DNA of 62,347 nt, filler included. It is 12 parts of 12 records of this genome, joined end to end, with 100 filler letters (N's around TTAATTAATTAA, not from the genome) between each part and the next. Parts side by side here need not be neighbours in the genome. Positions count along the whole stretch, not along the records: positions 33,416 to 38,194 come from SRR7504441_20687; 11 more parts are not named here. One strand, written 5' to 3'. Position 1 is the stretch's first letter; each line of letters starts with the position of its first letter. The notes beneath the pieces are model-generated. The model was not told the origin of the DNA and ran no database searches. It saw only the letters and a program-made list of their open reading frames with translations. Shown in pieces: positions 1,755-36,745 of the stretch. The translations under genes were made by a program, and so were the position numbers.

Positions 1755-2546
1755 TCAATATTGCAACTCAATGTTCTTGGGACCAGAGTATGAGTCCGAC
1801 TGGATGAGTATGTACCCTCTGCTCGATGGCGCACAGCTCGCGTCGCGCGGCTTGTCCGTCGTGTCCATCCCTTCAAACAGCAGACTCGCCGGAATCCACA
1901 CCGGCTGCCAAGTCTTGACCGCCACATCATACACTAGGAAAGAGTCGGTTGCTCGATGATACGCGGCCAGCGGGCTCATGTGCCCCGCGAAGTGCGACTC
2001 GTACCCGACCAGCCGGCGCTCGAAGTTGACGATCACCCCGCCGCCGGCCTCGAGTGTCCGCACCGCCTCTAGTCTGAACTGATCCAGCTGGCATCGGTCG
2101 GCCTTGCGCACAATCACCCTGCCATGATGCCGCTTGGCGAGAGTACCAATCTCGTCGATCGTGCTCGAGAAGTACCGGCCGAAGGCGCAGCGCGGGTTGA
2201 TCAGGCGGCGCAGCTCCTCCTGCAGCTGGTGGGCCGAGTGTTGCTCGCCCCGGCCGGTCGCTTGGGCGTTGAGCAGGATGGCCAGCGAGGTCAGCCCGCA
2301 CTGCAGTGGCCCTTGGCCCACAAAGGCTCGCGTCAGGTTCTCGAAGTTAGCCAGGCCCTCGCTCTGGCACAGCTGCGAAAACCCTGTCTGGGAGAGCAGA
2401 GGCTGGAGGGTGGGCGGGTGCGGGCGATGCTGGGCGACCGCCAGGGCCTCCGAAGACTGCAGCGCGGCCAGCAGCTGGTCGTGGCGGCTGGATGGGACCG
2501 ACGGCCGGGCTGGGCTGGTCGGGCGGACGGGGGCGTGCACTGCCAT
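1755..2546 (-). CDS. Phytochelatin synthase-like (papain-fold, C83) catalytic domain only
   Basis: Motifs Q-x4-CGLTSLAILLNA, VIVNFER, GHMSPLAAYH, FLVYDVA, PVWIP and SRGYILI; Cys-His-Asp triad present; intronless. Confidence 0.85.
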   Translation of the reverse strand: MAVHAPVRPTSPARPSVPSSRHDQLLAALQSSEALAVAQHRPHPPTLQPLLSQTGFSQLCQSEGLANFENLTRAFVGQGPLQCGLTSLAILLNAQATGRGEQHSAHQLQEELRRLINPRCAFGRYFSSTIDEIGTLAKRHHGRVIVRKADRCQLDQFRLEAVRTLEAGGGVIVNFERRLVGYESHFAGHMSPLAAYHRATDSFLVYDVAVKTWQPVWIPASLLFEGMDTTDKPRDASCAPSSRGYILIQSDSYSGPKNIELQY

Positions 2547-2669
2547 GTTGCACCGAGCAGTTTGAGCTCCGAACCTGGACCCGTCCGCCGACGCGGCATC
2601 TGTTGCGCGCCAGTAACGGAAGCGCAGCGCGGGATCATCTCGGCGCCTGTGGGCAGGAGCTCAGCTAGC

Positions 2670-4184
2670 ATGGCTGCAGAGCCGGTTTACGTCGAGTACA
2701 TACCGGGCGAGGGGCCGGTGGTGATCAGCGCCCCGCACGGCGGCTACTTGTGCCCGGAGGAGATCCCCAAGCACAGCGGCTGCACCGAGCACGACACCAA
2801 TTCGCAGGAGCTCGCCCGAGCCATCAGCGATCAGCTCGGCCAACGGATGCCTCGCCCGCACCTGGTGGTCTGCAAGATCAGCCGGGAGAAGGTGGACGTC
2901 AACCGCTCGCTAGCCACCTGCTGCGACGGGCACCCAGCCGCCGAGCGGGTGTACCGACAGTACCACCAGAGCATCCAGCAGGCGCTGGAGGCCGCCAAGC
3001 GCCGCTGGGGGTTCGCGCACCTGTTCGACATTCACGGCCAGTCGCACCGCCGAGCGGTCGAGCTGGGCTATTGCCTGACTGCGGCCGAGCTCTGCTGCTG
3101 CGATAGCGAGCTGGATGAGTGCTCGGCTGCATGCTGCAAGTCTTCACTGCAGGGCCTCTTTGGGCGGGTCCCGGACACTCAGGATAGGCCGTCCCTGTCG
3201 GCAATGATGCGGGGCCCGAGCAGCCTGGGCGGGATTCTGGAGGCGAATGGCGTTGCGGCTGTACCGTCCACCAGTGAGCCTTGTCCCGATGGGCTCTACT
3301 TTAATGGTGCGTACACCACCACATACTACGGCCGAGTGGCGGGCGACTGCGCGGTCAGCGCGACTCAGGTGGAGCCACACATGATCTACAGGCAAGACCA
3401 CCAGGCGATCCAAAGCTTTGCGGCCGCGTTCGCCACGGCAGCGCACAGCTTTGTGGACCAGTTTCTCATGTCTAGTGCAACCACTCTCAAGGAGCAACCA
3501 CTCTCGAAGGAGCGAGTCGAGCAAGTGTTGACCTACTGGTACGGCCCGTTGTCGGATTGGGACCGGCAGCCAGAGGCTAGTCTGGCCCGCCACCAGTTCT
3601 GGTGGCAGGGAGGCCCCGATATGGATGCCCACATCGCTTCAGAGTACGGAGCTTTACATACGGCGGTCGTGGCTTGCCCGGATCCAGTGGTGAAAGCCGG
3701 CCAAAGCCGACGGGAGCTGGCCGAGCAAGCGTTGGCTCGGGTTATAATTATCTCACAGTTTACTCGGCACATCCATCGGGGAGCTTGGTCAAAAGAGATC
3801 TCGCAGCGTCGACTGGCGCACAGCGACGCCCGCGCCTTTGAGAACGACGACAAGGCCCGGAAGGTCGCCAGGTGGATGCTCGCCGAAGGCCTGGACAAGG
3901 AGCTGGCTCACTATGAGAAGACGTTCTTGAACTTGGTGTTCATCCAAAGCGAGGACATGGCAGACCAGCAGCATGCAGTGCAATATGTTACAGAGATGAA
4001 TGAGCTCGCAATCCGCTCGGGTCGGCGGGCTAGCGGCGCAGACGGTGGCGTCTCGTGGTGCCAGGAACGGAGAGAGACGATCCGGCGATTTGGGCGGCTG
4101 CCGTTCCGCAATGCGGCCCTGGGGAGGGAGTCGACGCCTGAAGAAGTGGCGTTTCTGCAAGGGTGGCGCCGCGGGATGGCGTAG
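2670..4184 (+). CDS. N-formylglutamate amidohydrolase-like domain fused to DUF924
   Basis: N-terminal ISAPHGG, SREKVDVNR and LFDIHGQSH. C-terminal VLTYWYG...WW.GG and RFGRLPFRNAALGRESTPEE. ATG 2670 chosen over the longer ORF-track start, which overlaps the neighbouring gene. Confidence 0.75.
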   Translation: MAAEPVYVEYIPGEGPVVISAPHGGYLCPEEIPKHSGCTEHDTNSQELARAISDQLGQRMPRPHLVVCKISREKVDVNRSLATCCDGHPAAERVYRQYHQSIQQALEAAKRRWGFAHLFDIHGQSHRRAVELGYCLTAAELCCCDSELDECSAACCKSSLQGLFGRVPDTQDRPSLSAMMRGPSSLGGILEANGVAAVPSTSEPCPDGLYFNGAYTTTYYGRVAGDCAVSATQVEPHMIYRQDHQAIQSFAAAFATAAHSFVDQFLMSSATTLKEQPLSKERVEQVLTYWYGPLSDWDRQPEASLARHQFWWQGGPDMDAHIASEYGALHTAVVACPDPVVKAGQSRRELAEQALARVIIISQFTRHIHRGAWSKEISQRRLAHSDARAFENDDKARKVARWMLAEGLDKELAHYEKTFLNLVFIQSEDMADQQHAVQYVTEMNELAIRSGRRASGADGGVSWCQERRETIRRFGRLPFRNAALGRESTPEEVAFLQGWRRGMA

Positions 4185-9330: not shown

Positions 9331-9430
9331 NNNNNNNNNNNNNNNNNNNNNNNNNNNNNNNNNNNNNNNNNNNNTTAATTAATTAANNNNNNNNNNNNNN
9401 NNNNNNNNNNNNNNNNNNNNNNNNNNNNNN
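9331..9430. other. Artificial contig spacer (N-TTAATTAATTAA-N); also at 13100-13199, 18125-18224, 24214-24313, 30158-30257, 33316-33415, 38195-38294, 44980-45079, 48762-48861, 53591-53690, 57895-57994
   Basis: Identical 100-nt N-padded blocks carrying stops in all six frames; genes are truncated at them. Confidence 0.97.
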
Positions 9431-9741: not shown

Positions 9742-9988
9742 TCTTATCCGAGGCTTACCCGGGCTCTCCCATGCGGGCAACACGAGCTCCAGGAGGTGCG
9801 GTGCCTCCCCTCTGCGCCACGACGACCTGAAGGATTCCAGGTCAAGGCCTGGCCAATAGATTTTTTTTCCCCAGATTCTTCCGTTACCGTTGGCCCAGGC
9901 GCAGGTACAGGCAGGCGGTACACGATGAATCCAGTACAGCACAGCTCTAGTGCTGCTTACCGCCAAACGCCGGAGCTCTCGACGCAAC

Positions 9989-12802
9989 ATGTCCTGGAGC
10001 ACCGCGCGCGCCGCCAACCGCACAAACCCGACCCCTTCAGCCGCCTCGCGTGCAGCAGCCCGGCTGTCCCGGGACATCGGACTGATCCGGCATCAACCCT
10101 GCCCCGGGATCGTTGCCGGCCCGGTGGCGGACGACCTGTTCGAGTGGGCCGCGGCGCTCGCCCCACCCGACCAGCCTGAGGCCCGGTGCTTCCAGCTGCG
10201 GCTGCTCTTCCCGGAGGATTTCCCGACCAGCCCGCCCGAAGTTTGGCTGCGCACCCCGCTGTGCCACCCGGCCTACACCGGGCCGGGCTCGCCGCTCTGC
10301 TGCGACCTGCTCGGACTGGAACCGCACGGCGACCGGTTGAGCGGCTGGAGCTCCGGGTACGGGGTGGGCTCTTTGCTGCTCCAGCTGCAGGCTTTCCTGT
10401 TCGACTCCGAGTTGCTCAAGCCCGGGCTCAACGGCGTCCCCGACCTCAAAGCCGCCATCCAACTGGCCGAGCAGCACGCCAAGCAGCACGGCCCCGTGCT
10501 CGGCTGCCAGCCTGCGGCCTCGGCTGCGATGCAAGTTGTGAAGAAGCCTGCGATCCGAGTCTGTACGCTGAGACGCAAGCCGGCCGATGACGAGCCGGCC
10601 GATGACGAGCCTGTCCAAAAGGAGAACCAGCCAGCCCGAGCTGCGGCTAAAGCCGTTTCGAAGGAGTCGGAGTGGATTGTGGTTACTGGCCGGCGACACA
10701 AGCTGGCGGCTGCGCTGAACCCTAGCCCGGCGGCTGCTCAGCTGCTGTCCAACCGCTTCGAGTGCCTGCTGGCCAGCAAGTCTGACCCAGTTGGGAGCAG
10801 CCAGATGACCAAAGCGCATAGAAAGAACCTCCGCCGGCAGGCAGCCCGACGCAAGCTCAAGCAGTGCGCACCCTCCCAGCCGCCCAAGGACGTCTACCAC
10901 GACGCACTCGACTTGGCCGCGATAGACACGTCTGTGTCGACCCAAGCTGCCGACCCGCGCGCGGCAGTTGGGCTGTTGGACATGCCCTCGCGGGTACTGG
11001 TGGAGGGGGTCATCCTGCCTGAGCTGCCGGTGTCGTCAGTCGGGCTTCTTGCCCGGTCCTGCGCTGCGATGCGGGCTGCGTGTGAGTGTGGCGAGGTGTG
11101 GAAGGACCTCTTCACTCTGCACTGCCCTGAGTCGACTCTCACCGCGGCTGGGGTCGAGGATTGGAAACATGCCTACCTGTGCGAGGTGAGCTCTGTGATG
11201 AATGACCTGCGGTGCTTCCACAGCAAGGCCTCGTTCGATGAGGCTGTACTGGGGGTGCCAGTGGTGGCGACCACAAACCCGCGCACTGGCAAGGTCGACT
11301 ACATCGACTCAAGCATGGACATTCTCTCGCTCGAGGCGTACAAGTACGACAAGGTTCGGACCTCACTGTACAAAGAATCGTTTGACTTCTTCTTGCCCAT
11401 GTACATCACACCGGAGCATTTCGATCGCGCAATACCGGCATTCGAGCGCGCGATGCTAAAGCTGGCCCCTCACCTGGCATACAGAGGCCAATTCCGTCCG
11501 GAGATGGTGCTGCACGCGCTCCCGACCATGATGGTCACCCAGAGCGTACTGCTGGCCGACCGCGGCAAGCACGCTTCAGACAGGGCACTCGAGGGCTTCT
11601 GCATGCTCCACCGTTTGCTGCTGGCGGCGGTGGAGCATTATAACCTACAGCGCCAAGTGGAAGAGCGGCTCAGCCTGTTCATCAAATCGGAGCGCAACAG
11701 GTCCAAGGCCGAGTTTCCCGGGCTGGGGCACGTCTATGCGCTGCTTTCAGTGTCAAACAAGTACTCGTGGCGACAGGTGCACCACTTGGTGATGCAAGAG
11801 GGGTTTGACCGAGCAGTGCTCTGGGTTTGCAAGAAGAACAACAAGCTGGCCCAAGCGCATAAGCTCGACTCAGGGCTGACCGACGAGCAGTTGCTTGGCA
11901 GCTGGTTGGAAGCTGACTTGGTGAGGCTGCGGGTTACAATGTTTAACGTGTTCTTCTTACTCAAAGTGGCCCGCCCAGACGAGGCCCCGCTGGAGGCTGT
12001 GTGCAGTCAATACGACGAGCTCTACGGCAGACCGTCGGCGCTGCAGCGGAGGCTGCTTCAGCAGGGCTGCAATCAGATTCTAGCCGTCGATACCTGGCCT
12101 GCTTTCTTCCGCAGCTGCTCGCTGACTGTGCCGAGCAAGGCCTACGTACTCGACTTGTTCCGGAGTGCCGTCAAGAATTCGATAAAGAAGAAGTATCATA
12201 CAGATGGCATGGATTTCAATCGGGTGCACTCGTCAGGCGTGTCCAAGATCCTGCTCAAGGGCGAATCACACTCGACCGCGCCCAACCTGCGACACGTCCA
12301 GCTGCAAGAGGCATGGGGTTGGTCTGATGCAGGCACCGTGTATCTGGACGCCTCGTGCTTGCTCTTCTCGCATTCTGGTGAGTTTGTAGAGGTCGTAGAC
12401 TGGTGCCATAGGCATGGAACTCGGCGGGCTGTCGTACACTCAGGCGATGTGATTGATCACGTCAAGTGCGAAGGCCGGCATACCATCACATTAGATCTGT
12501 GCAAGCTCAGCTCAAAGATCGGGTCGCTTTACTTCACTATCAGTGCCTACACGACAACACTTGGCGACATACGACAGCCTTCCGTCTCGTTCTTTGACCA
12601 AGGCAATGGGCTAGCCGAGCTATGTCGGTACTCTCTAGAAAGGAGTTGCAAAGATAACGACAAGACTGCGGTCATCATGTGCAAATTGCATAGGAGCGGC
12701 CCCAAGGGGCCATGGACTGTGACTGCAATCGGCCACGTTGGCCCGGGCCGCGCCTCAGATTACGAGCCCATAATCCGAAATATCACAAACAACAACTTGT
12801 AA
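9989..12802 (+). CDS. Ubiquitin-conjugating (E2/UBC) domain + F-box-like segment + unnamed helical domain + C-terminal TerD domain
   Basis: UBC motifs RLSRDI, LFEW, FPEDFPTSPPEV, HP, LCCDLL and WSSGY..LLLQLQ. F-box-like LLDMPSRVL...LARSC...VWKDLF. TerD-like YLDASCLLF, VVHSGD, ITLDL.KL and LYFTISAY. Single exon. Confidence 0.85.
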   Translation: MSWSTARAANRTNPTPSAASRAAARLSRDIGLIRHQPCPGIVAGPVADDLFEWAAALAPPDQPEARCFQLRLLFPEDFPTSPPEVWLRTPLCHPAYTGPGSPLCCDLLGLEPHGDRLSGWSSGYGVGSLLLQLQAFLFDSELLKPGLNGVPDLKAAIQLAEQHAKQHGPVLGCQPAASAAMQVVKKPAIRVCTLRRKPADDEPADDEPVQKENQPARAAAKAVSKESEWIVVTGRRHKLAAALNPSPAAAQLLSNRFECLLASKSDPVGSSQMTKAHRKNLRRQAARRKLKQCAPSQPPKDVYHDALDLAAIDTSVSTQAADPRAAVGLLDMPSRVLVEGVILPELPVSSVGLLARSCAAMRAACECGEVWKDLFTLHCPESTLTAAGVEDWKHAYLCEVSSVMNDLRCFHSKASFDEAVLGVPVVATTNPRTGKVDYIDSSMDILSLEAYKYDKVRTSLYKESFDFFLPMYITPEHFDRAIPAFERAMLKLAPHLAYRGQFRPEMVLHALPTMMVTQSVLLADRGKHASDRALEGFCMLHRLLLAAVEHYNLQRQVEERLSLFIKSERNRSKAEFPGLGHVYALLSVSNKYSWRQVHHLVMQEGFDRAVLWVCKKNNKLAQAHKLDSGLTDEQLLGSWLEADLVRLRVTMFNVFFLLKVARPDEAPLEAVCSQYDELYGRPSALQRRLLQQGCNQILAVDTWPAFFRSCSLTVPSKAYVLDLFRSAVKNSIKKKYHTDGMDFNRVHSSGVSKILLKGESHSTAPNLRHVQLQEAWGWSDAGTVYLDASCLLFSHSGEFVEVVDWCHRHGTRRAVVHSGDVIDHVKCEGRHTITLDLCKLSSKIGSLYFTISAYTTTLGDIRQPSVSFFDQGNGLAELCRYSLERSCKDNDKTAVIMCKLHRSGPKGPWTVTAIGHVGPGRASDYEPIIRNITNNNL

Positions 12803-33315: not shown

Positions 33316-33415
33316 NNNNNNNNNNNNNNNNNNNNNNNNNNNNNNNNNNNNNNNNNNNNTTAATTAATTAANNNNNNNNNNNNNNNNNNNNNNNNNNNNN
33401 NNNNNNNNNNNNNNN

Positions 33416-33866: not shown

Positions 33867-35656
33867 CTACTCTTGGCTTTGGTCGAGCTCTTCGGCCTCA
33901 AACTGGCGCACGTGCTCCACCACGGCCTCCGCCAGCCACTCGGCCTCCACCTGCTCGCCCTCTTGCTGCACCACATCTCGGATATGGTGCCGCCTGCTCC
34001 CACCACCCTTGCACCCAAAGCTGTCGCCGTTCTCGGCATGTGCGTCGTACAGCGCGTCGTAGTGCCCGAGTAGCCCACGCACCACATCCGGGTACTGGCC
34101 CCGGTCCAGCTGTCCGCACAGCTCTGACACCCGCTCGGTGCCTAGCTTGCGCTCGAGCATCCGCATCGACTCGTGCATCTCTTTCGCCCACCGCTCAGGG
34201 TCGCTGCCCCGTGCCTCCGGGCCCGTGTACTCATCCAGCAGCAGCCGTACCCTGGCCGGCTCCGGCACAGAGATCTAACCCAACGCTCAGCCCTGCACCG
34301 GCGCGCCCTCACCCGAACCACCAGCGGAGCACAGCGAAGCATCGTGTACAGCCCAGGCGGAACGGTGCACTTGCCAACGAGCCTGTCGCCCATCAGCTCC
34401 GAACTAGCTCGTGCTCACCGGCCCTCGTCTTCAATAAACACCCAACGGTGCACGAACCGACACCCTGGCTGCTGGGCCAGCCGCTGCCAGGCCAAAGCTC
34501 ACAGAGCGGCTGCCAAGGCTCGCACCGCAGCTTCGCGCCAGGCCTGTGCCACGTTATTGGTATATTGCTCAATAGACGGCTGATACTCGCACTCGCGGTC
34601 GCCCCGACCGCACCAGCCGAACGCCGAGCCGCGGTGATTGGCCAGCCCCTCCAGATCCACCATCGGCTGGCCCATGCGCCCGAGCGCTTCAAGTACACGA
34701 GTCTTGCCCGTACCGGTCCTGCCAGCCACGATGCATACCCGGAGCATGCGCATCGCGGGCTCGAGCCCAACCGCCGCCCACTCGTCGTGCGACATGGCTA
34801 CCGGCCGGAGCGGGGATAGCTCCTGCGCGCGGGTGCACGCCAGCTGGAGCTGCCTCTGCTGCTCCGCCCTGACCTTGTGACCTCGCTTCACCTGCTTCTT
34901 CTTGGCCTTGTTGAACAGCTTCTTCTCCGCCTTGCGCAGCCGGGCCGGCCCAGCCTCCCTGGCCACTGGCTCGGCCTCCTCTGTGGGCTCGGCATCCACT
35001 GCAGTCTTCTCCGGCTCCTCCGGCTCCTCACGGCTCGGCTCAGTCTGCGCGTGCTCCGGCTCCGGGACCTGAACGGCCCGATCCCACAAGCTGCCCACCC
35101 ATCCCCGGTACGCCTTATACCCCCCCGCCAGGGTGACCGCCGACAGCCCGTTCTCGCGGAGCAAGACGGCCACAGCCCCGGAGCGCATCCCACCCCGCCA
35201 GCAGTGCACCGCAAGCGCCGGCCCGAGCCGCCGGGCAGCCGCCACCAGTGCTGGCAGCCGTGGACGGACCAGCCGAATCGCCAGCACCATTGCGGGCTGC
35301 TTGCCCTGCTCGGCGAACAGAGTGCCCACCGCCGCCCGCTCCTCGTTGCCGAGCAACGGAAGCGACGCCGCCCCGGGGATGTGCCCCTGGGCGTACTCAG
35401 CGGGGGAGCGCACGTCGATGATCGGGAGCCCGGCCTGGAGGAACTCGGGCACCGCAAGCCCCGGCGGGACTGGCCCGTCGGGACACTTGAGCAGCGCCCG
35501 CAGCCGGATCATCGCAGCCAAGTCGGCCCCCGGGGAGCTGCCGGCGGTTAGCCGAGCCAGAAGCGCCGGAACCGACTCGTCCGTCGGCTCGCGCCTGCGC
35601 AGCCACCGCAGGGCCAGCCCCAGCGCTGCGGCAGCCCCGAGCAGATCCGGCCACAT
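33867..35656 (-). CDS. selU: tRNA 2-selenouridine(34) synthase-like (rhodanese + P-loop), 3 introns
   Basis: Motifs IIDVRSPAEYAQGHIPGA.SLPLL..EERAAVGT, HCWRGGMRS, LAGGYKAYR, GRTGTGKT, DLEGLANHRGSAFG, QPS, FIEDEGRLVG, RVRLLLDEY and HYDALY. GT-AG introns 34484-34525, 34383-34418 and 34275-34312. Confidence 0.9.
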
Positions 35657-35699
35657 GCCGACGCGCGCGGCTGGTGTCGCGAAAAATCTCACCTCGAGG

Positions 35700-36745
35700 A
35701 TGGGCGAAATCGCCTGGGTCCGCCGGGCGCTCACATTCACAGTGCTGGTGCCCCCGGCCGTGTACATGGCCTGGACGAGCCAGCCGGCGGCCACGCTGCT
35801 CTGCGCGCTGTTCGTTGCCGGCGGCTCTTTCGAGTACGCCGGGCTGCTCCCTAGATTGCTGGCCGGAAAGCAGTCGGCCCACTGGCCCGCGACTGAGCCG
35901 CCCACCGCCTGGGCCCAGACGGCTGGGGGGCTGCTGCTCTGCCTGGCGGCCAGTGGCGGGAGCCGAGAGGCTCTGGACGCGGCGCTGGCGCTGGTTGCGG
36001 CAGGTCTAGGGCTGCTGATGAGCGCAGGCAGCCGGGCCGAGTAGTAGGCTGACTGAGCAGTCTGCAGGTGGTCGCGGGTTTGTGTCGGTGGCGCTGGGGC
36101 TGTTCGGGTTGTGGTGCGGTCGGCTCCCGGGGCGGGGAGGAGCGCTGGCAGGTGGATTGGATGGACGATGGCGCACGCGCTGCTGCTTCGGCAGTCGGCC
36201 GGCCCGGGGCTGGCGGTGGGCACTCTCCTCTCCTGTTTCATCGGCGACACAGGTCTGCCCACCTTCTCGCACGACTGACGGTCGGCAGCGGCCCTGGTGG
36301 TCGGCCGCGCAATCACGCGCTGCGGTTTCCGGCCGGCGCTGCTGGCGCCGGCCCTCAGCCCGAAGAAGACCTGGGCAGGGGTGCTGGGGCACCTGGCCGG
36401 CAGTGTGGCCACCTGTGATGCACTGCACCGGTCGGGCGTGGTGCCATGCGGGCATGGCGATGCGGTAGTGCTCGGGCTCTTGATATCCGTCTGCTGTGTG
36501 CTGGGTGTGCCTGCTGTGTGTGCCGCGCCCACCGGCCATTAGGCGACTTGCTCGAATCCATGATGAAGCGGGCTGCCGAGGTTAAGGACGCCAGTAGCAT
36601 CTTCCCGGGACACGGTGCCCGCGGGCGCTGTGCAACAAGGATGAGCCGAGCGGCAGGTGGTTTCTTGGACCGATTGGACGGCTTGCTTGTCGCCTTCCCG
36701 GCCGTGTACTGCTACGTGAGCTGGCGTGGCATAACTAATAACTGA
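35700..36745 (+). CDS. cdsA: Phosphatidate cytidylyltransferase (CDP-DAG synthase), short CdsA type; ~5 introns
   Basis: Polytopic membrane protein with [16 protein letters not shown] and [31 protein letters not shown]. Confidence 0.88.

What the first reader, a model, noticed from the sequence alone, without database searches (positions are those of the whole stretch)
33867..35656. Spliced, nuclear-type tRNA 2-selenouridine synthase (SelU/MnmH) in a eukaryote
Seen: a complete rhodanese domain (CWRGGMRS active-site Cys) plus P-loop, interrupted by three 36-42 nt spliceosomal introns of the same style as its neighbours, so this is not a bacterial contaminant. It also has additions relative to bacterial SelU: a hydrophobic/Arg N-terminal anchor or targeting peptide (MWPDLLGAAAALGLALRWLRRR) and an acidic/Lys-rich linker insertion. 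Established: SelU geranylates and selenates wobble 2-thiouridine in bacterial tRNAs using selenophosphate from SelD, and the pathway is regarded as prokaryotic. Inference: this protist may install seleno- or geranyl-uridine on cytosolic or organellar tRNAs.
Basis: partly seen in the sequence, partly recalled or inferred. Interest (0 to 1): 0.8.

Follow-up and report, generated by a model that had tools for sequence, protein, structure and literature searches.

The report
Intron-split algal-type selenouridine synthase gene
A GC-rich marine protist carries, among ordinary nuclear genes, an intact intron-containing copy of the enzyme that bacteria use to put selenium or a geranyl group on the wobble base of some tRNAs, here with a membrane anchor and a charged linker.

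Summary
On the minus strand, 35656..33867 encodes a 557-residue SelU/MnmH homologue. It has a rhodanese domain with the catalytic Cys and a P-loop domain with an intact Walker A. Three GT-AG introns of 42, 36 and 38 nt split it. Introns 2 and 3 are fixed uniquely by homology; the ends of intron 1 are not, and no RNA evidence for any junction could be obtained.

The contig is eukaryotic: neighbours include ubiquitin/ankyrin, an E2, SET-PHD, a kinase and NIPA. The head-to-head neighbour has a 38-nt intron of the same style.

The protein belongs to a well-supported eukaryote-type SelU clade (97/97). That clade holds unannotated proteins of Micromonas pusilla, Emiliania huxleyi and Chrysophaeum taylorii, plus many marine environmental sequences. 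This scan has already noted such genes in green picoalgae on other DNA. The papers I could search still treat selenouridine as a prokaryotic trait.

Three features are particular to this gene and its two nearest relatives:
- an N-terminal hydrophobic anchor with a basic flank;
- a long acidic-then-basic linker;
- Ala at the otherwise invariant Gly67 position, where Salmonella mutants over-geranylate tRNA.

Function, compartment and the presence of a selenophosphate synthetase remain untested, because no genome is held for this window.

The parts
34526..35656 (-). Exon 1 (residues 1-377): start codon, anchor, eukaryote-type N-terminal extension, rhodanese domain, charged linker, start of the P-loop domain
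   Evidence: Open frame from the ATG at 35656. It matches Pfam Rhodanese and the NCBIfam MnmH equivalogs. The exon end depends on the choice made for intron 1.
35591..35656 (-). N-terminal hydrophobic segment followed by an Arg cluster (residues 1-22): probable signal-anchor
   Evidence: The 15-residue Kyte-Doolittle maximum is 1.71 at residues 5-19. Like segments with basic C-flanks occur in P0003, P0004 and P0280, which gives 7 of the 41 rows examined, or 4 distinct proteins. The matching part of P0003 is modelled as one helix, residues 2-47.
35105..35428 (-). Rhodanese domain (residues 77-184), including the MnmH-type insertion
   Evidence: Pfam PF00581 matches residues 77-184. The region aligns without gaps to the E. 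coli SelU insertion region.
35201..35203 (-). Codon of the catalytic Cys152 (E. coli Cys97)
   Evidence: Alignment to E. coli SelU. The column is Cys in all 252 rows that have a residue there, out of 266 rows.
35279..35281 (-). Codon of Ala126, at the position of E. coli/Salmonella Gly67
   Evidence: Of 266 rows, 242 have Gly, 9 have Ala and 15 have a gap. The Ala rows are the window, five rows of the P0003 cluster, two of the P0004 cluster, and P0318. In Salmonella, G67E/R/V raise tRNA geranylation (PMC4830565, passages).
34949..35068 (-). Acidic part of the linker (residues about 197-236)
   Evidence: Hand count on the translation: 14 D/E and 3 K/R in 40 residues. The matching part of P0003 is modelled as disordered, with pLDDT below 50 over residues 219-273. 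Bacterial SelU lacks this part.
34838..34948 (-). Lys/Arg-rich part of the linker (residues about 237-273)
   Evidence: Hand count on the translation: 14 K/R and 2 D/E in 37 residues. It aligns with the like segments of P0003 and P0004. In P0003 the segment is modelled as a long helix, residues 273-309, with block pLDDT of 64-85.
34700..34723 (-). Walker A (G-x4-GKT) of the P-loop domain, residues 312-319, with Lys318 = E. coli Lys155
   Evidence: Alignment to E. coli SelU. The Lys column is conserved in 254 of the 255 rows that have a residue there.
34484..34525 (-). Intron 1 (42 nt, GT..CAG, in frame, contains a TGA); ends not fixed
   Evidence: Alternatives ending at 34472 (54 nt) or 34469 (57 nt), or with GC donors, score within about 3 bits. 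There is no RNA evidence.
34419..34483 (-). Exon 2 (65 nt)
   Evidence: It aligns to the conserved block that ends in the E-D-E motif of the family.
34383..34418 (-). Intron 2 (36 nt, GT..CAG, contains an in-frame TGA)
   Evidence: It is the only intron-2 choice among the 25 best models printed. Removing it gives a gapless alignment to P0003.
34313..34382 (-). Exon 3 (70 nt)
34275..34312 (-). Intron 3 (38 nt, GT..TAG, shifts the frame if retained)
   Evidence: The best alternative, a GC donor giving 32 nt, scores 5 bits lower. Removing the intron gives a gapless alignment to P0003.
33867..34274 (-). Exon 4 (135 residues plus the stop codon at 33869-33867): C-terminal part of the P-loop domain and the eukaryote-type C-terminal extension
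   Evidence: (TIGR03167 profile positions 230-303).
35700..36745 (+). Head-to-head neighbour: a CTP_transf_1 (cytidylyltransferase family) gene, 43 nt between the two start codons, with a 38-nt intron at 36505..36542. It is context, not part of SelU.
   Evidence: (PF01148 at E 7.1e-6 and 5.2e-15 on two frame pieces).

Best explanation
This is a real nuclear gene of a GC-rich marine protist. [quoted passage not shown]

Shown here:
- family membership by sequence;
- intact catalytic Cys, Arg184 (E. coli Arg129) and Walker A lysine;
- eukaryotic neighbours;
- membership of a eukaryote-only clade.

Inferred from the bacterial enzyme: the P-loop domain binds geranyl pyrophosphate and geranylates the 2-thio group of wobble s2U34 in tRNA-Lys, tRNA-Glu and tRNA-Gln. 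The rhodanese Cys then exchanges the geranyl-thio group for selenium from selenophosphate.

Inferred from the anatomy:
- The short hydrophobic N-terminus with its basic C-flank tethers the enzyme to a membrane, with the catalytic domains on the cytosolic face (positive-inside rule).
- There is no room for an organelle transit peptide, because residues from about 28 onward already align with the N-terminal extension shared by soluble eukaryote-type SelU proteins.
- The likely substrates are therefore cytosolic 2-thiolated tRNAs.
- The Lys/Arg-rich helix of the linker may add tRNA affinity.
- The Gly67-to-Ala change may shift the balance between geranylation and selenation.
For: Identity:
- NCBIfam MnmH equivalogs match exon 1 (E 1.4e-58 and 6.1e-57) and exon 4 (E 5.3e-9).
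- The nearest full-length relative, P0003 (56% identity over 404 tree columns), passes the curated cut-offs: TIGR03167 at 286 bits against 219.75, and NF008750 at 288.7 against 241.

Catalytic residues: Cys152, Arg184, Ala122 and the Walker A Lys318 align with E. coli C97, R129, A63 and K155. Their roles come from PMC4830565, abstract and passages.

Gene model.

Eukaryotic context: ubiquitin plus ankyrin, UQ_con, subtilase with PA domain, laminin-G, C2H2, NIPA, SET plus PHD, protein kinase and phytochelatin synthase. The neighbour has a 38-nt intron.

Clade:
- All 35 eukaryote-type rows fall on one side of a branch, with support 97/97 and in 98% of 200 bootstrap trees.
- The window pairs with P0003 at 100/100.
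- Both lie inside a 14-row clade (100/95) that holds the E. huxleyi protein.

Anchor and charge flanks. Linker model.

Selenium supply in kindred algae: green algae and pelagophytes have large selenoproteomes and SPS2 (preprint 10.1101/014928, passages), and SelD fusions occur in Ostreococcus (PMC2398784, passage).

A 250-nt contig from a seawater RNA library is 97% identical to 35405..35654. This is a weak sign that a close relative is transcribed.
Against: - No read or contig crosses any of the three junctions, so splicing is inferred from homology only.
- The ends of intron 1 are ambiguous.
- The joined 557-residue product could not be handed to the curated NCBIfam models. On their own the pieces score 193.4 and 35.9 bits, below the TIGR03167 whole-protein cut-off of 219.75.
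- No genome is held, so SelD/SPS2, the tRNA thiolation genes and the C5 side-chain pathways could not be sought.
- The otherwise invariant Gly67 is Ala.
- Cytosolic eukaryotic tRNAs carry a different C5 side chain from the bacterial substrates. That is established knowledge; I did not test it here.
- No signal or transit-peptide predictor was available, so the N-terminus could still be a targeting signal.
- Most rows of the 'eukaryote-type' clade are unnamed environmental sequences. I labelled them by architecture and by their grouping with 3 named eukaryotes and 1 MMETSP transcript.
Confidence: 0.62

Rival explanations
1. The enzyme works inside an organelle (mitochondrion or plastid). The hydrophobic, Arg-rich N-terminus is an import or inner-membrane sorting signal, and the substrates are the bacterial-type (c)mnm5s2U-like wobble bases of organellar tRNAs.
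For: - The natural substrates of bacterial SelU are (c)mnm5s2U tRNAs (PMC4830565), and organelles keep bacterial-type wobble pathways (established knowledge).
- Some members of the green-algal clade have long Ser/Thr/Arg-rich N-termini, for example P0310 and P0311.
Against: - In the window, only about 8 residues lie between the hydrophobic segment and the N-terminal extension shared with soluble family members. That stretch holds acidic residues.
- The charge flanks of all four anchored proteins place the catalytic part on the positive, cytosolic side.
- The named Micromonas, Emiliania and Chrysophaeum models show no presequence, although their gene models may be cut short at the N-terminus.
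Confidence: 0.2
2. The anchored subfamily has changed its job. It could act only as a prenyl (geranyl) transferase on tRNA or on another thiolated substrate at a membrane, or as a sulfur or selenium carrier, without making selenouridine.
For: - Gly67 is replaced by Ala only in the window, the P0003 and P0004 clusters, and P0318 (9 of the 251 rows with a residue).
- Substitutions at Gly67 in Salmonella make geranylated tRNA accumulate.
- The subfamily has a membrane anchor and a long linker that other members lack.
Against: - The catalytic Cys that is needed for selenation but not for geranylation is kept.
- Ala is a small change compared with the tested E, R and V substitutions.
- The rest of the conserved positions are intact.
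Confidence: 0.12
3. The locus is not expressed as modelled. It is either a decaying copy whose stops and frameshift merely look like introns, or intron 1 is really coding sequence whose TGA is read as selenocysteine.
For: - There is no RNA evidence for the junctions.
- Intron 1 is in frame and lies in a stretch of variable length.
Against: - All three segments have GT..AG ends and a narrow size range (36-42 nt), like the neighbour's 38-nt intron.
- Removing introns 2 and 3 restores a gapless alignment.
- Every conserved catalytic position is intact.
- No SECIS-like match appears in the whole window at gathering scores, nor in the 3' region at E up to 10.
Confidence: 0.04
4. Bacterial contamination or a very recent transfer from bacteria.
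For: The family is overwhelmingly bacterial. The best bacterial matches reach 53-58% identity over the rhodanese domain.
Against: - The gene has introns and eukaryotic neighbours on both sides.
- It shares an N-terminal extension, linker and C-terminal extension with named eukaryotes.
- It lies deep inside the eukaryote-type clade.
Confidence: 0.01

Closest known systems
Bacterial tRNA 2-selenouridine synthase SelU (MnmH, YbbB) of E. coli / Salmonella; NCBIfam TIGR03167 and NF008750
   Same: - Two-domain plan: a rhodanese domain with the MnmH-type insertion, followed by a P-loop domain.
- The catalytic Cys (C97), R129, A63 and the Walker A Lys (K155) are all conserved.
- The conserved blocks of the P-loop domain align throughout.
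   Different: - 557 residues against 364.
- An N-terminal anchor plus a helical extension of about 76 residues.
- A linker of about 110 residues between the domains.
- A C-terminal extension.
- Ala at the Gly67 position.
- Three spliceosomal-type introns and a nuclear context.
- The activity has not been tested.
Uncharacterised eukaryote-type SelU homologues in public genomes: Micromonas pusilla CCMP1545 MICPUCDRAFT_30706, Emiliania huxleyi EMIHUDRAFT_452770, Chrysophaeum taylorii CTAYLR_008138; an MMETSP transcript (P0158)
   Same: - Same clade, with support 97/97.
- A shared N-terminal extension, a basic patch after the rhodanese domain, and a C-terminal extension.
- These proteins pass the TIGR03167 cut-off: 263.4, 236 and 317.4 bits against 219.75.
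   Different: - They lack the hydrophobic anchor and the long acidic/basic linker, and they keep Gly at position 67.
- Micromonas and Chrysophaeum lie in other subclades.
- The sources name them only as hypothetical or rhodanese-domain proteins.
P0003 and P0004: unnamed marine environmental proteins (588 aa and a 386-aa fragment)
   Same: - Nearest relatives: 40% identity over 98% of exon 1, and 48% over 86%.
- P0003 pairs with the window at 100/100.
- Same anchor, same kind of linker, and the same Ala at position 67.
   Different: P0003 is an uninterrupted open frame on contigs of 2.0-3.3 kb, so it is either a transcript or an intron-less gene. Its organism is unknown.
Split archaeal SelU of Methanococcales (NCBIfam TIGR04568 and TIGR04569)
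   Same: The same two domains and the same presumed reaction. The matches are weak: 64.4 and 19.8 bits for exon 1.
   Different: The archaeal enzyme is two separate polypeptides. Here the two domains are joined by a long linker, and the scores are far below the archaeal cut-offs of 200 and 180.

Membership tests
SelU/MnmH/YbbB tRNA 2-selenouridine synthase | Rhodanese domain with the catalytic Cys in the active-site loop (E. coli C97) | tested here: met
   Pfam Rhodanese at E 3.4e-10. Cys152 aligns with C97. The column is invariant in all 252 rows that have a residue there.
SelU/MnmH/YbbB tRNA 2-selenouridine synthase | MnmH-specific insertion of about 36 residues in the rhodanese domain, absent from single-domain rhodaneses (PMC4830565, Fig. 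2 legend) | tested here: met
   The region between the two rhodanese motifs aligns without gaps with the E. coli SelU insertion. It includes the conserved Ala (A63 = A122).
SelU/MnmH/YbbB tRNA 2-selenouridine synthase | P-loop domain with an intact Walker A (G-x4-GKT; E. coli K155), needed for geranylation | tested here: met
   Residues 312-319. Lys318 aligns with K155.
SelU/MnmH/YbbB tRNA 2-selenouridine synthase | Whole protein scores above the curated cut-off of an equivalog model | tested here: inconclusive
   Only unspliced pieces could be scanned. For TIGR03167 they score 193.4 bits (exon 1) and 35.9 bits (exon 4), against a cut-off of 219.75. The nearest relative, P0003, scores 286 bits.
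SelU/MnmH/YbbB tRNA 2-selenouridine synthase | Gly at E. coli position 67, reported as 100% conserved in bacterial orthologues | tested here: not met
   Ala126. Of 266 rows, 242 have Gly, 9 have Ala and 15 have a gap. This is a conserved site rather than a catalytic one, so it lowers the claim of identical behaviour, not the claim of homology.
SelU/MnmH/YbbB tRNA 2-selenouridine synthase | Selenophosphate-dependent selenation and geranyl-PP-dependent geranylation of s2U34 in tRNA | not testable with these tools
   This needs enzyme assays or nucleoside mass spectrometry.
Selenouridine trait (SelD + SelU in one genome) | A selenophosphate synthetase (SelD/SPS2) in the same organism | not testable with these tools
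   No genome is held for the window. None of the ORFs I scanned in the window is SelD.
Eukaryotic nuclear gene with spliceosomal introns | GT-AG segments whose removal restores the frame and a gapless alignment to intron-less relatives | tested here: met
   for introns 2 and 3. Intron 1 is met only in the sense that some in-frame GT-AG segment containing the TGA must be removed.
Eukaryotic nuclear gene with spliceosomal introns | Spliced junctions seen in RNA | tested here: inconclusive
   One RNA run held 4% of the sampled words. The only good contig lies wholly within exon 1, at 35405..35654.
Eukaryote-type SelU clade | Groups with named eukaryotic sequences, apart from bacteria | tested here: met
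   Careful IQ-TREE run under LG+C20 PMSF on 55 rows. The 35 eukaryote-type rows lie on one side of a branch at 97/97, and the window sits in a 14-row clade with E. huxleyi at 100/95.

The most novel reading that the evidence does not exclude
A membrane-tethered, cytosol-facing SelU gives this protist, and by extension a set of marine algae, a selenium- or geranyl-modified wobble uridine on cytosolic tRNA-Lys, tRNA-Glu and tRNA-Gln. That would be a eukaryotic selenouridine trait tied to ocean selenium supply. In the anchored subfamily, the Gly67-to-Ala change would favour the lipid-like geranylated tRNA at a membrane surface.
Probability: 0.2. Interest if true: 0.85.

Novelty: new variant of a known kind. 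Interest (0 to 1): 0.58.

Why it matters
Reviews of selenium biology divide selenium use into three parts: selenocysteine in all domains, and selenouridine and a selenium cofactor in prokaryotes only (PMC9312934 and PMC11227280, passages). Nucleoside catalogues nevertheless list a 2-selenouridine derivative for eukaryotes without naming an enzyme (PMC7694415, section 7.10, passages).

A conserved, intron-bearing SelU clade in green algae, haptophytes, pelagophytes and this protist offers a concrete candidate enzyme. These are lineages known for large selenoproteomes. The clade also offers cultivable species in which the nucleoside can be sought.

The anchored variant adds two questions that can be tested directly. 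Where in a eukaryotic cell is the modification made? Does the change at Gly67 tune geranylation against selenation?

Tried and rejected
- **Own genome.** None is held, so SelD/SPS2, MnmA/MTU1, MnmE/G, Ncs6/Urm1 and Elongator could not be sought.
- **RNA evidence.** One search listed 4 runs. One seawater RNA run held 0.04 of the words. Laying all 4 runs gave one 250-nt contig inside exon 1, plus a 33-nt low-complexity match. There were no joints and no cover over the introns. The five codons that differ in that contig (2 synonymous, 3 not) say nothing about selection.
- **Full enumeration of intron combinations.** It timed out twice, and a third run failed on an off-by-three coordinate. I replaced it with one-junction-at-a-time enumeration.
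- **ORF-based scan for short introns across the window.** It listed 239 candidates on the plus strand and 246 on the minus strand. It was too noisy in GC-rich DNA to give an intron-size distribution, and I used it only for the 36505..36542 candidate.
- **Lineage of the organism.**
  - The neighbour subtilase has no close named relative: the best hit is unnamed at 41%, and Chlamydomonas is at 31%.
  - The cluster look-up gave no organism names.
  - The Atlas look-ups gave only 'Bacteria' for SelU and Chordata, Haptophyta and Streptophyta clusters, all at 0.95, for NIPA.
  - The lineage stays open. The haptophyte hint rests on the SelU tree alone.
- **Genomic DNA of close relatives.** The metagenome scan kept 80 loci, none of them close. 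L002-L004 are eukaryote-type at 32-35% identity. L003 and L004 are uninterrupted over residues 79-501, so the three introns are not shared there.
- **Plastid (cyanobacterial) origin.** Cyanobacteria were the best bacterial hits to exon 1. In the tree, however, the eukaryote-type clade is not nested in or sister to them. With only near hits sampled, the source remains unresolved.
- **Selenocysteine reading of the TGA in intron 1.** No SECIS was found. See the rival explanations.
- **Solved structures.** Only the isolated rhodanese domain of a Clostridium difficile homologue, 3g5j, is related. The PDB copy holds no full-length SelU.
- **Literature.** Searches, plus (which was too loose to be useful), found no paper that describes a eukaryotic SelU gene. 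My recollection that Mariotti et al. 2015 reported eukaryotic ybbB was not borne out by the passages I read from the paper or its preprint. Their supplements could not be seen and may hold such data. My recollection of old reports of a seleno-derivative of the cytosolic wobble base in mammals and plants comes from no call; the term search found 0 papers.
- **Motif positions by script.** Positions in the report were counted by hand and cross-checked against the residue numbers.
Full report
**What is there.** The minus strand between 35656 and 33867 holds a long open frame of 385 codons from an ATG (P0001). Downstream lie two short open pieces and a last open piece of 135 codons (P0002).
- P0001 matches Pfam Rhodanese (E 3.4e-10, residues 77-184).
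- P0001 also matches the NCBIfam MnmH equivalogs NF008750 (198.7 bits) and TIGR03167 (193.4 bits).
- P0002 matches the C-terminal part of TIGR03167 (35.9 bits, profile positions 230-303).
- A search of about 5.8 billion proteins gave 1824 hits at E <= 0.001 among 8000 scored candidates. The best was an unnamed 588-residue marine protein, P0003, at 40% identity over 98% of the query.

**Gene model.** Using 13 homologues as a profile, I varied each junction in turn and scored the 50 stop-free GT/GC-AG models.
- Intron 2 is 34418..34383 (36 nt) and intron 3 is 34312..34275 (38 nt). All of the 19 best models use these two. Removing them gives a gapless alignment to P0003 across both junctions.
- Intron 1 lies in a stretch that varies in length among relatives. 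The GT-AG option 34525..34484 (42 nt) scores 496.5 bits, and options ending at 34472 or 34469, or using GC donors, score within about 3 bits.
- All three donors begin GTG. The acceptors are CAG, CAG and TAG.
- The product has 557 residues.
- Two earlier attempts at a full enumeration timed out, and one failed on my coordinate slip.

**Is it eukaryotic?** Open frames along the window match the following families:
- ubiquitin plus ankyrin repeats;
- a ubiquitin-conjugating enzyme;
- a subtilase with a PA domain;
- laminin-G domains;
- a C2H2 finger;
- a NIPA magnesium transporter;
- SET plus PHD;
- a protein kinase;
- phytochelatin synthase.

The gene that starts 43 nt upstream on the other strand (35700) is a CTP_transf_1 family member. 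Two of its frame pieces match consecutive parts of the Pfam profile (162-217 and 213-241) across a 38-nt GT..TAG segment at 36505..36542. So at least one neighbour has an intron of the same style. The subtilase gene, by contrast, is uninterrupted for 2.8 kb. No tRNA gene and no Rfam family was found in the window.

**RNA evidence.** Laying four runs gave one 250-nt contig at 35405..35654 with 8 differences, all inside exon 1, and no joint. Splicing therefore rests on homology alone.

**Catalytic anatomy.** I aligned the product with E. coli SelU, taken from the K-12 record.

| Window residue | E. coli residue |
|---|---|
| Cys152 | C97 |
| Arg184 | R129 |
| Ala122 | A63 |
| Walker A 312-319, Lys318 | K155 |

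The MnmH-type insertion of the rhodanese domain is also present.

According to Jäger et al. 2016 (PMC4830565, abstract and passages):
- C97 is required for selenation but not for geranylation;
- an intact Walker A is required for geranylation;
- substitutions at G67 (E, R, V) make geranylated tRNA accumulate.

In the window that position is Ala126. Across the 266 SelU-like rows I held, the column has 242 Gly, 9 Ala and 15 gaps. The Ala rows are the window, five rows of the P0003 cluster, two of the P0004 cluster, and P0318.

**Additions to the bacterial plan.** There are four.
1. Residues 1-22 form a hydrophobic segment followed by an Arg cluster. Of 41 rows examined, 7 have such a segment with a basic C-flank, and these represent 4 distinct proteins: the window, P0003, P0004 and P0280.
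2. Residues about 23-76 are a helical extension shared by most eukaryote-type members.
3. The linker of about 110 residues between the domains has an acidic half and a Lys/Arg-rich half (hand count). In an AlphaFold2 model of P0003 built on an 11-row alignment (mean pLDDT 74.9, pTM 0.71), the acidic half is disordered and the basic half is a long helix.
4. A C-terminal extension is shared with the clade.

Only the rhodanese domain has a solved relative, 3g5j.

**Relatives and tree.** I searched with an alignment of 11 eukaryote-type proteins (A1). The first 48 listed rows score 369-780 bits and are 394-901 residues long. They precede the first row of bacterial length (341 aa, 353 bits). The list shows 120 of the 2800 hits at E <= 1e-30.
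- Named rows among the eukaryote-type hits are Emiliania huxleyi EMIHUDRAFT_452770 and Micromonas pusilla MICPUCDRAFT_30706. Chrysophaeum taylorii appeared, and one cluster holds an MMETSP transcript.
- P0003 and these three named proteins pass the TIGR03167 cut-off.
- I built a careful IQ-TREE (LG+C20 PMSF) of 55 rows: the window, 34 eukaryote-type rows, 8 cyanobacteria, 11 other bacteria and E. coli. I left out near-duplicates such as P0290-P0309 (apart from three of them) and the fragments P0004, P0007 and P0012.
- All 35 eukaryote-type rows fall on one side of a branch (97/97, and 98% of 200 bootstrap trees).
- The window pairs with P0003 at 100/100, inside a 14-row clade (100/95) that contains the E. 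huxleyi protein. Micromonas lies in a separate 16-row clade (100/100).
- The eukaryote-type clade is not nested within cyanobacteria (quick trees agree).
- Two eukaryote-type metagenome loci are uninterrupted across the window's intron positions, so these introns are lineage-specific.

**How it probably works.** Following the bacterial enzyme, the P-loop domain should bind geranyl pyrophosphate and geranylate the sulfur of wobble s2U. The rhodanese Cys should then replace the geranyl-thio group with selenium from selenophosphate.

The compartment is inferred, not shown.
- In all four anchored proteins, the charge is greater on the C-terminal side of the hydrophobic segment. By the positive-inside rule, this puts the catalytic part on the cytosolic face of a membrane.
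- The residues that follow already align with the mature N-terminal extension of soluble relatives. That leaves no room for a transit peptide.

This points to cytosolic 2-thiolated tRNAs as substrates, with an organellar role as the main rival. Whether Ala126 alters the geranylation/selenation balance is open.

**What is known.** The passages I read from Romero 2005, Zhang and Gladyshev 2008, Mariotti 2015 (paper and preprint), Zhang 2022 and the 2024 Asgard paper all treat selenouridine/ybbB as a prokaryotic trait. McCown 2020 lists a selenouridine derivative for all three domains without naming a eukaryotic enzyme. No search found a paper on a eukaryotic SelU gene. Supplements were closed.

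The scan's own earlier notes report SelU genes in Ostreococcus lucimarinus and another green picoalga, and call the group little-noticed. My tree and searches agree with this and extend it to a second, haptophyte-containing subclade with an anchored variant.

**Verdict.** The identity and the eukaryotic origin are well supported. Function, compartment and selenium supply are inferred. This is a new variant (anchored, long linker, Ala at position 67, tiny introns) of a known enzyme family, and the family's eukaryotic branch is present in databases but absent from the papers I could search.

Noticed in passing
window 35657-35699 and 35700-36745 (+): Only 43 nt separate the start codon of SelU from that of a head-to-head CTP_transf_1 (cytidylyltransferase family) gene. 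That gene is itself cut by very short introns: one of 38 nt is supported by profile continuity, and others of about 27-42 nt are suggested by reading the sequence.
   Followed up: partly
P0282 (901 aa, one 3084-nt Logan contig), residues 263-453: A eukaryote-type SelU carries an AlkB-like 2OG-Fe(II) oxygenase domain (PF13532, E 3e-9; weak likeness to ALKBH5) between the rhodanese and P-loop domains. That is exactly where the window's protein has its charged linker. It may be a natural fusion of two RNA-modifying activities, or it may be an assembly chimera.
   Followed up: partly
window 9929-12802 (+): One 957-codon open frame matches a ubiquitin-conjugating enzyme domain (residues 45-162) and a TerD domain (residues 783-936). 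This is an unusual pairing if it is one protein.
   Followed up: no
window 2073-4184 (+): One 703-codon open frame matches DUF924 (E 3.5e-35) and, weakly, N-formylglutamate amidohydrolase. Both are mostly bacterial families, yet here they sit in a eukaryotic contig.
   Followed up: no
window 1758-2660 (-): A phytochelatin synthase domain (E 2e-25). It is a metal-handling gene on the same contig as the selenium-related gene. Nothing shows a link between them.
   Followed up: no
P0283 (Emiliania huxleyi EMIHUDRAFT_452770, 412 aa): The public gene model lacks the segment that holds the Walker A motif (a gap in the alignment). The near-identical environmental row P0285 is longer. The reference annotation of this gene is probably incomplete.
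   Followed up: no
window 35405-35654: A contig from a seawater RNA library is 97% identical to this stretch (8 differences in 250 nt). A close relative of this organism therefore occurs, and is probably transcribed, in the sea.
   Followed up: partly
window, 22 blocks such as 9331-9374 / 9387-9430 and 33316-33359 / 33372-33415: Pairs of 44-N blocks recur every 4-6 kb (968 N in all). They look like masking rather than assembly gaps, and they cut several open frames.
   Followed up: no
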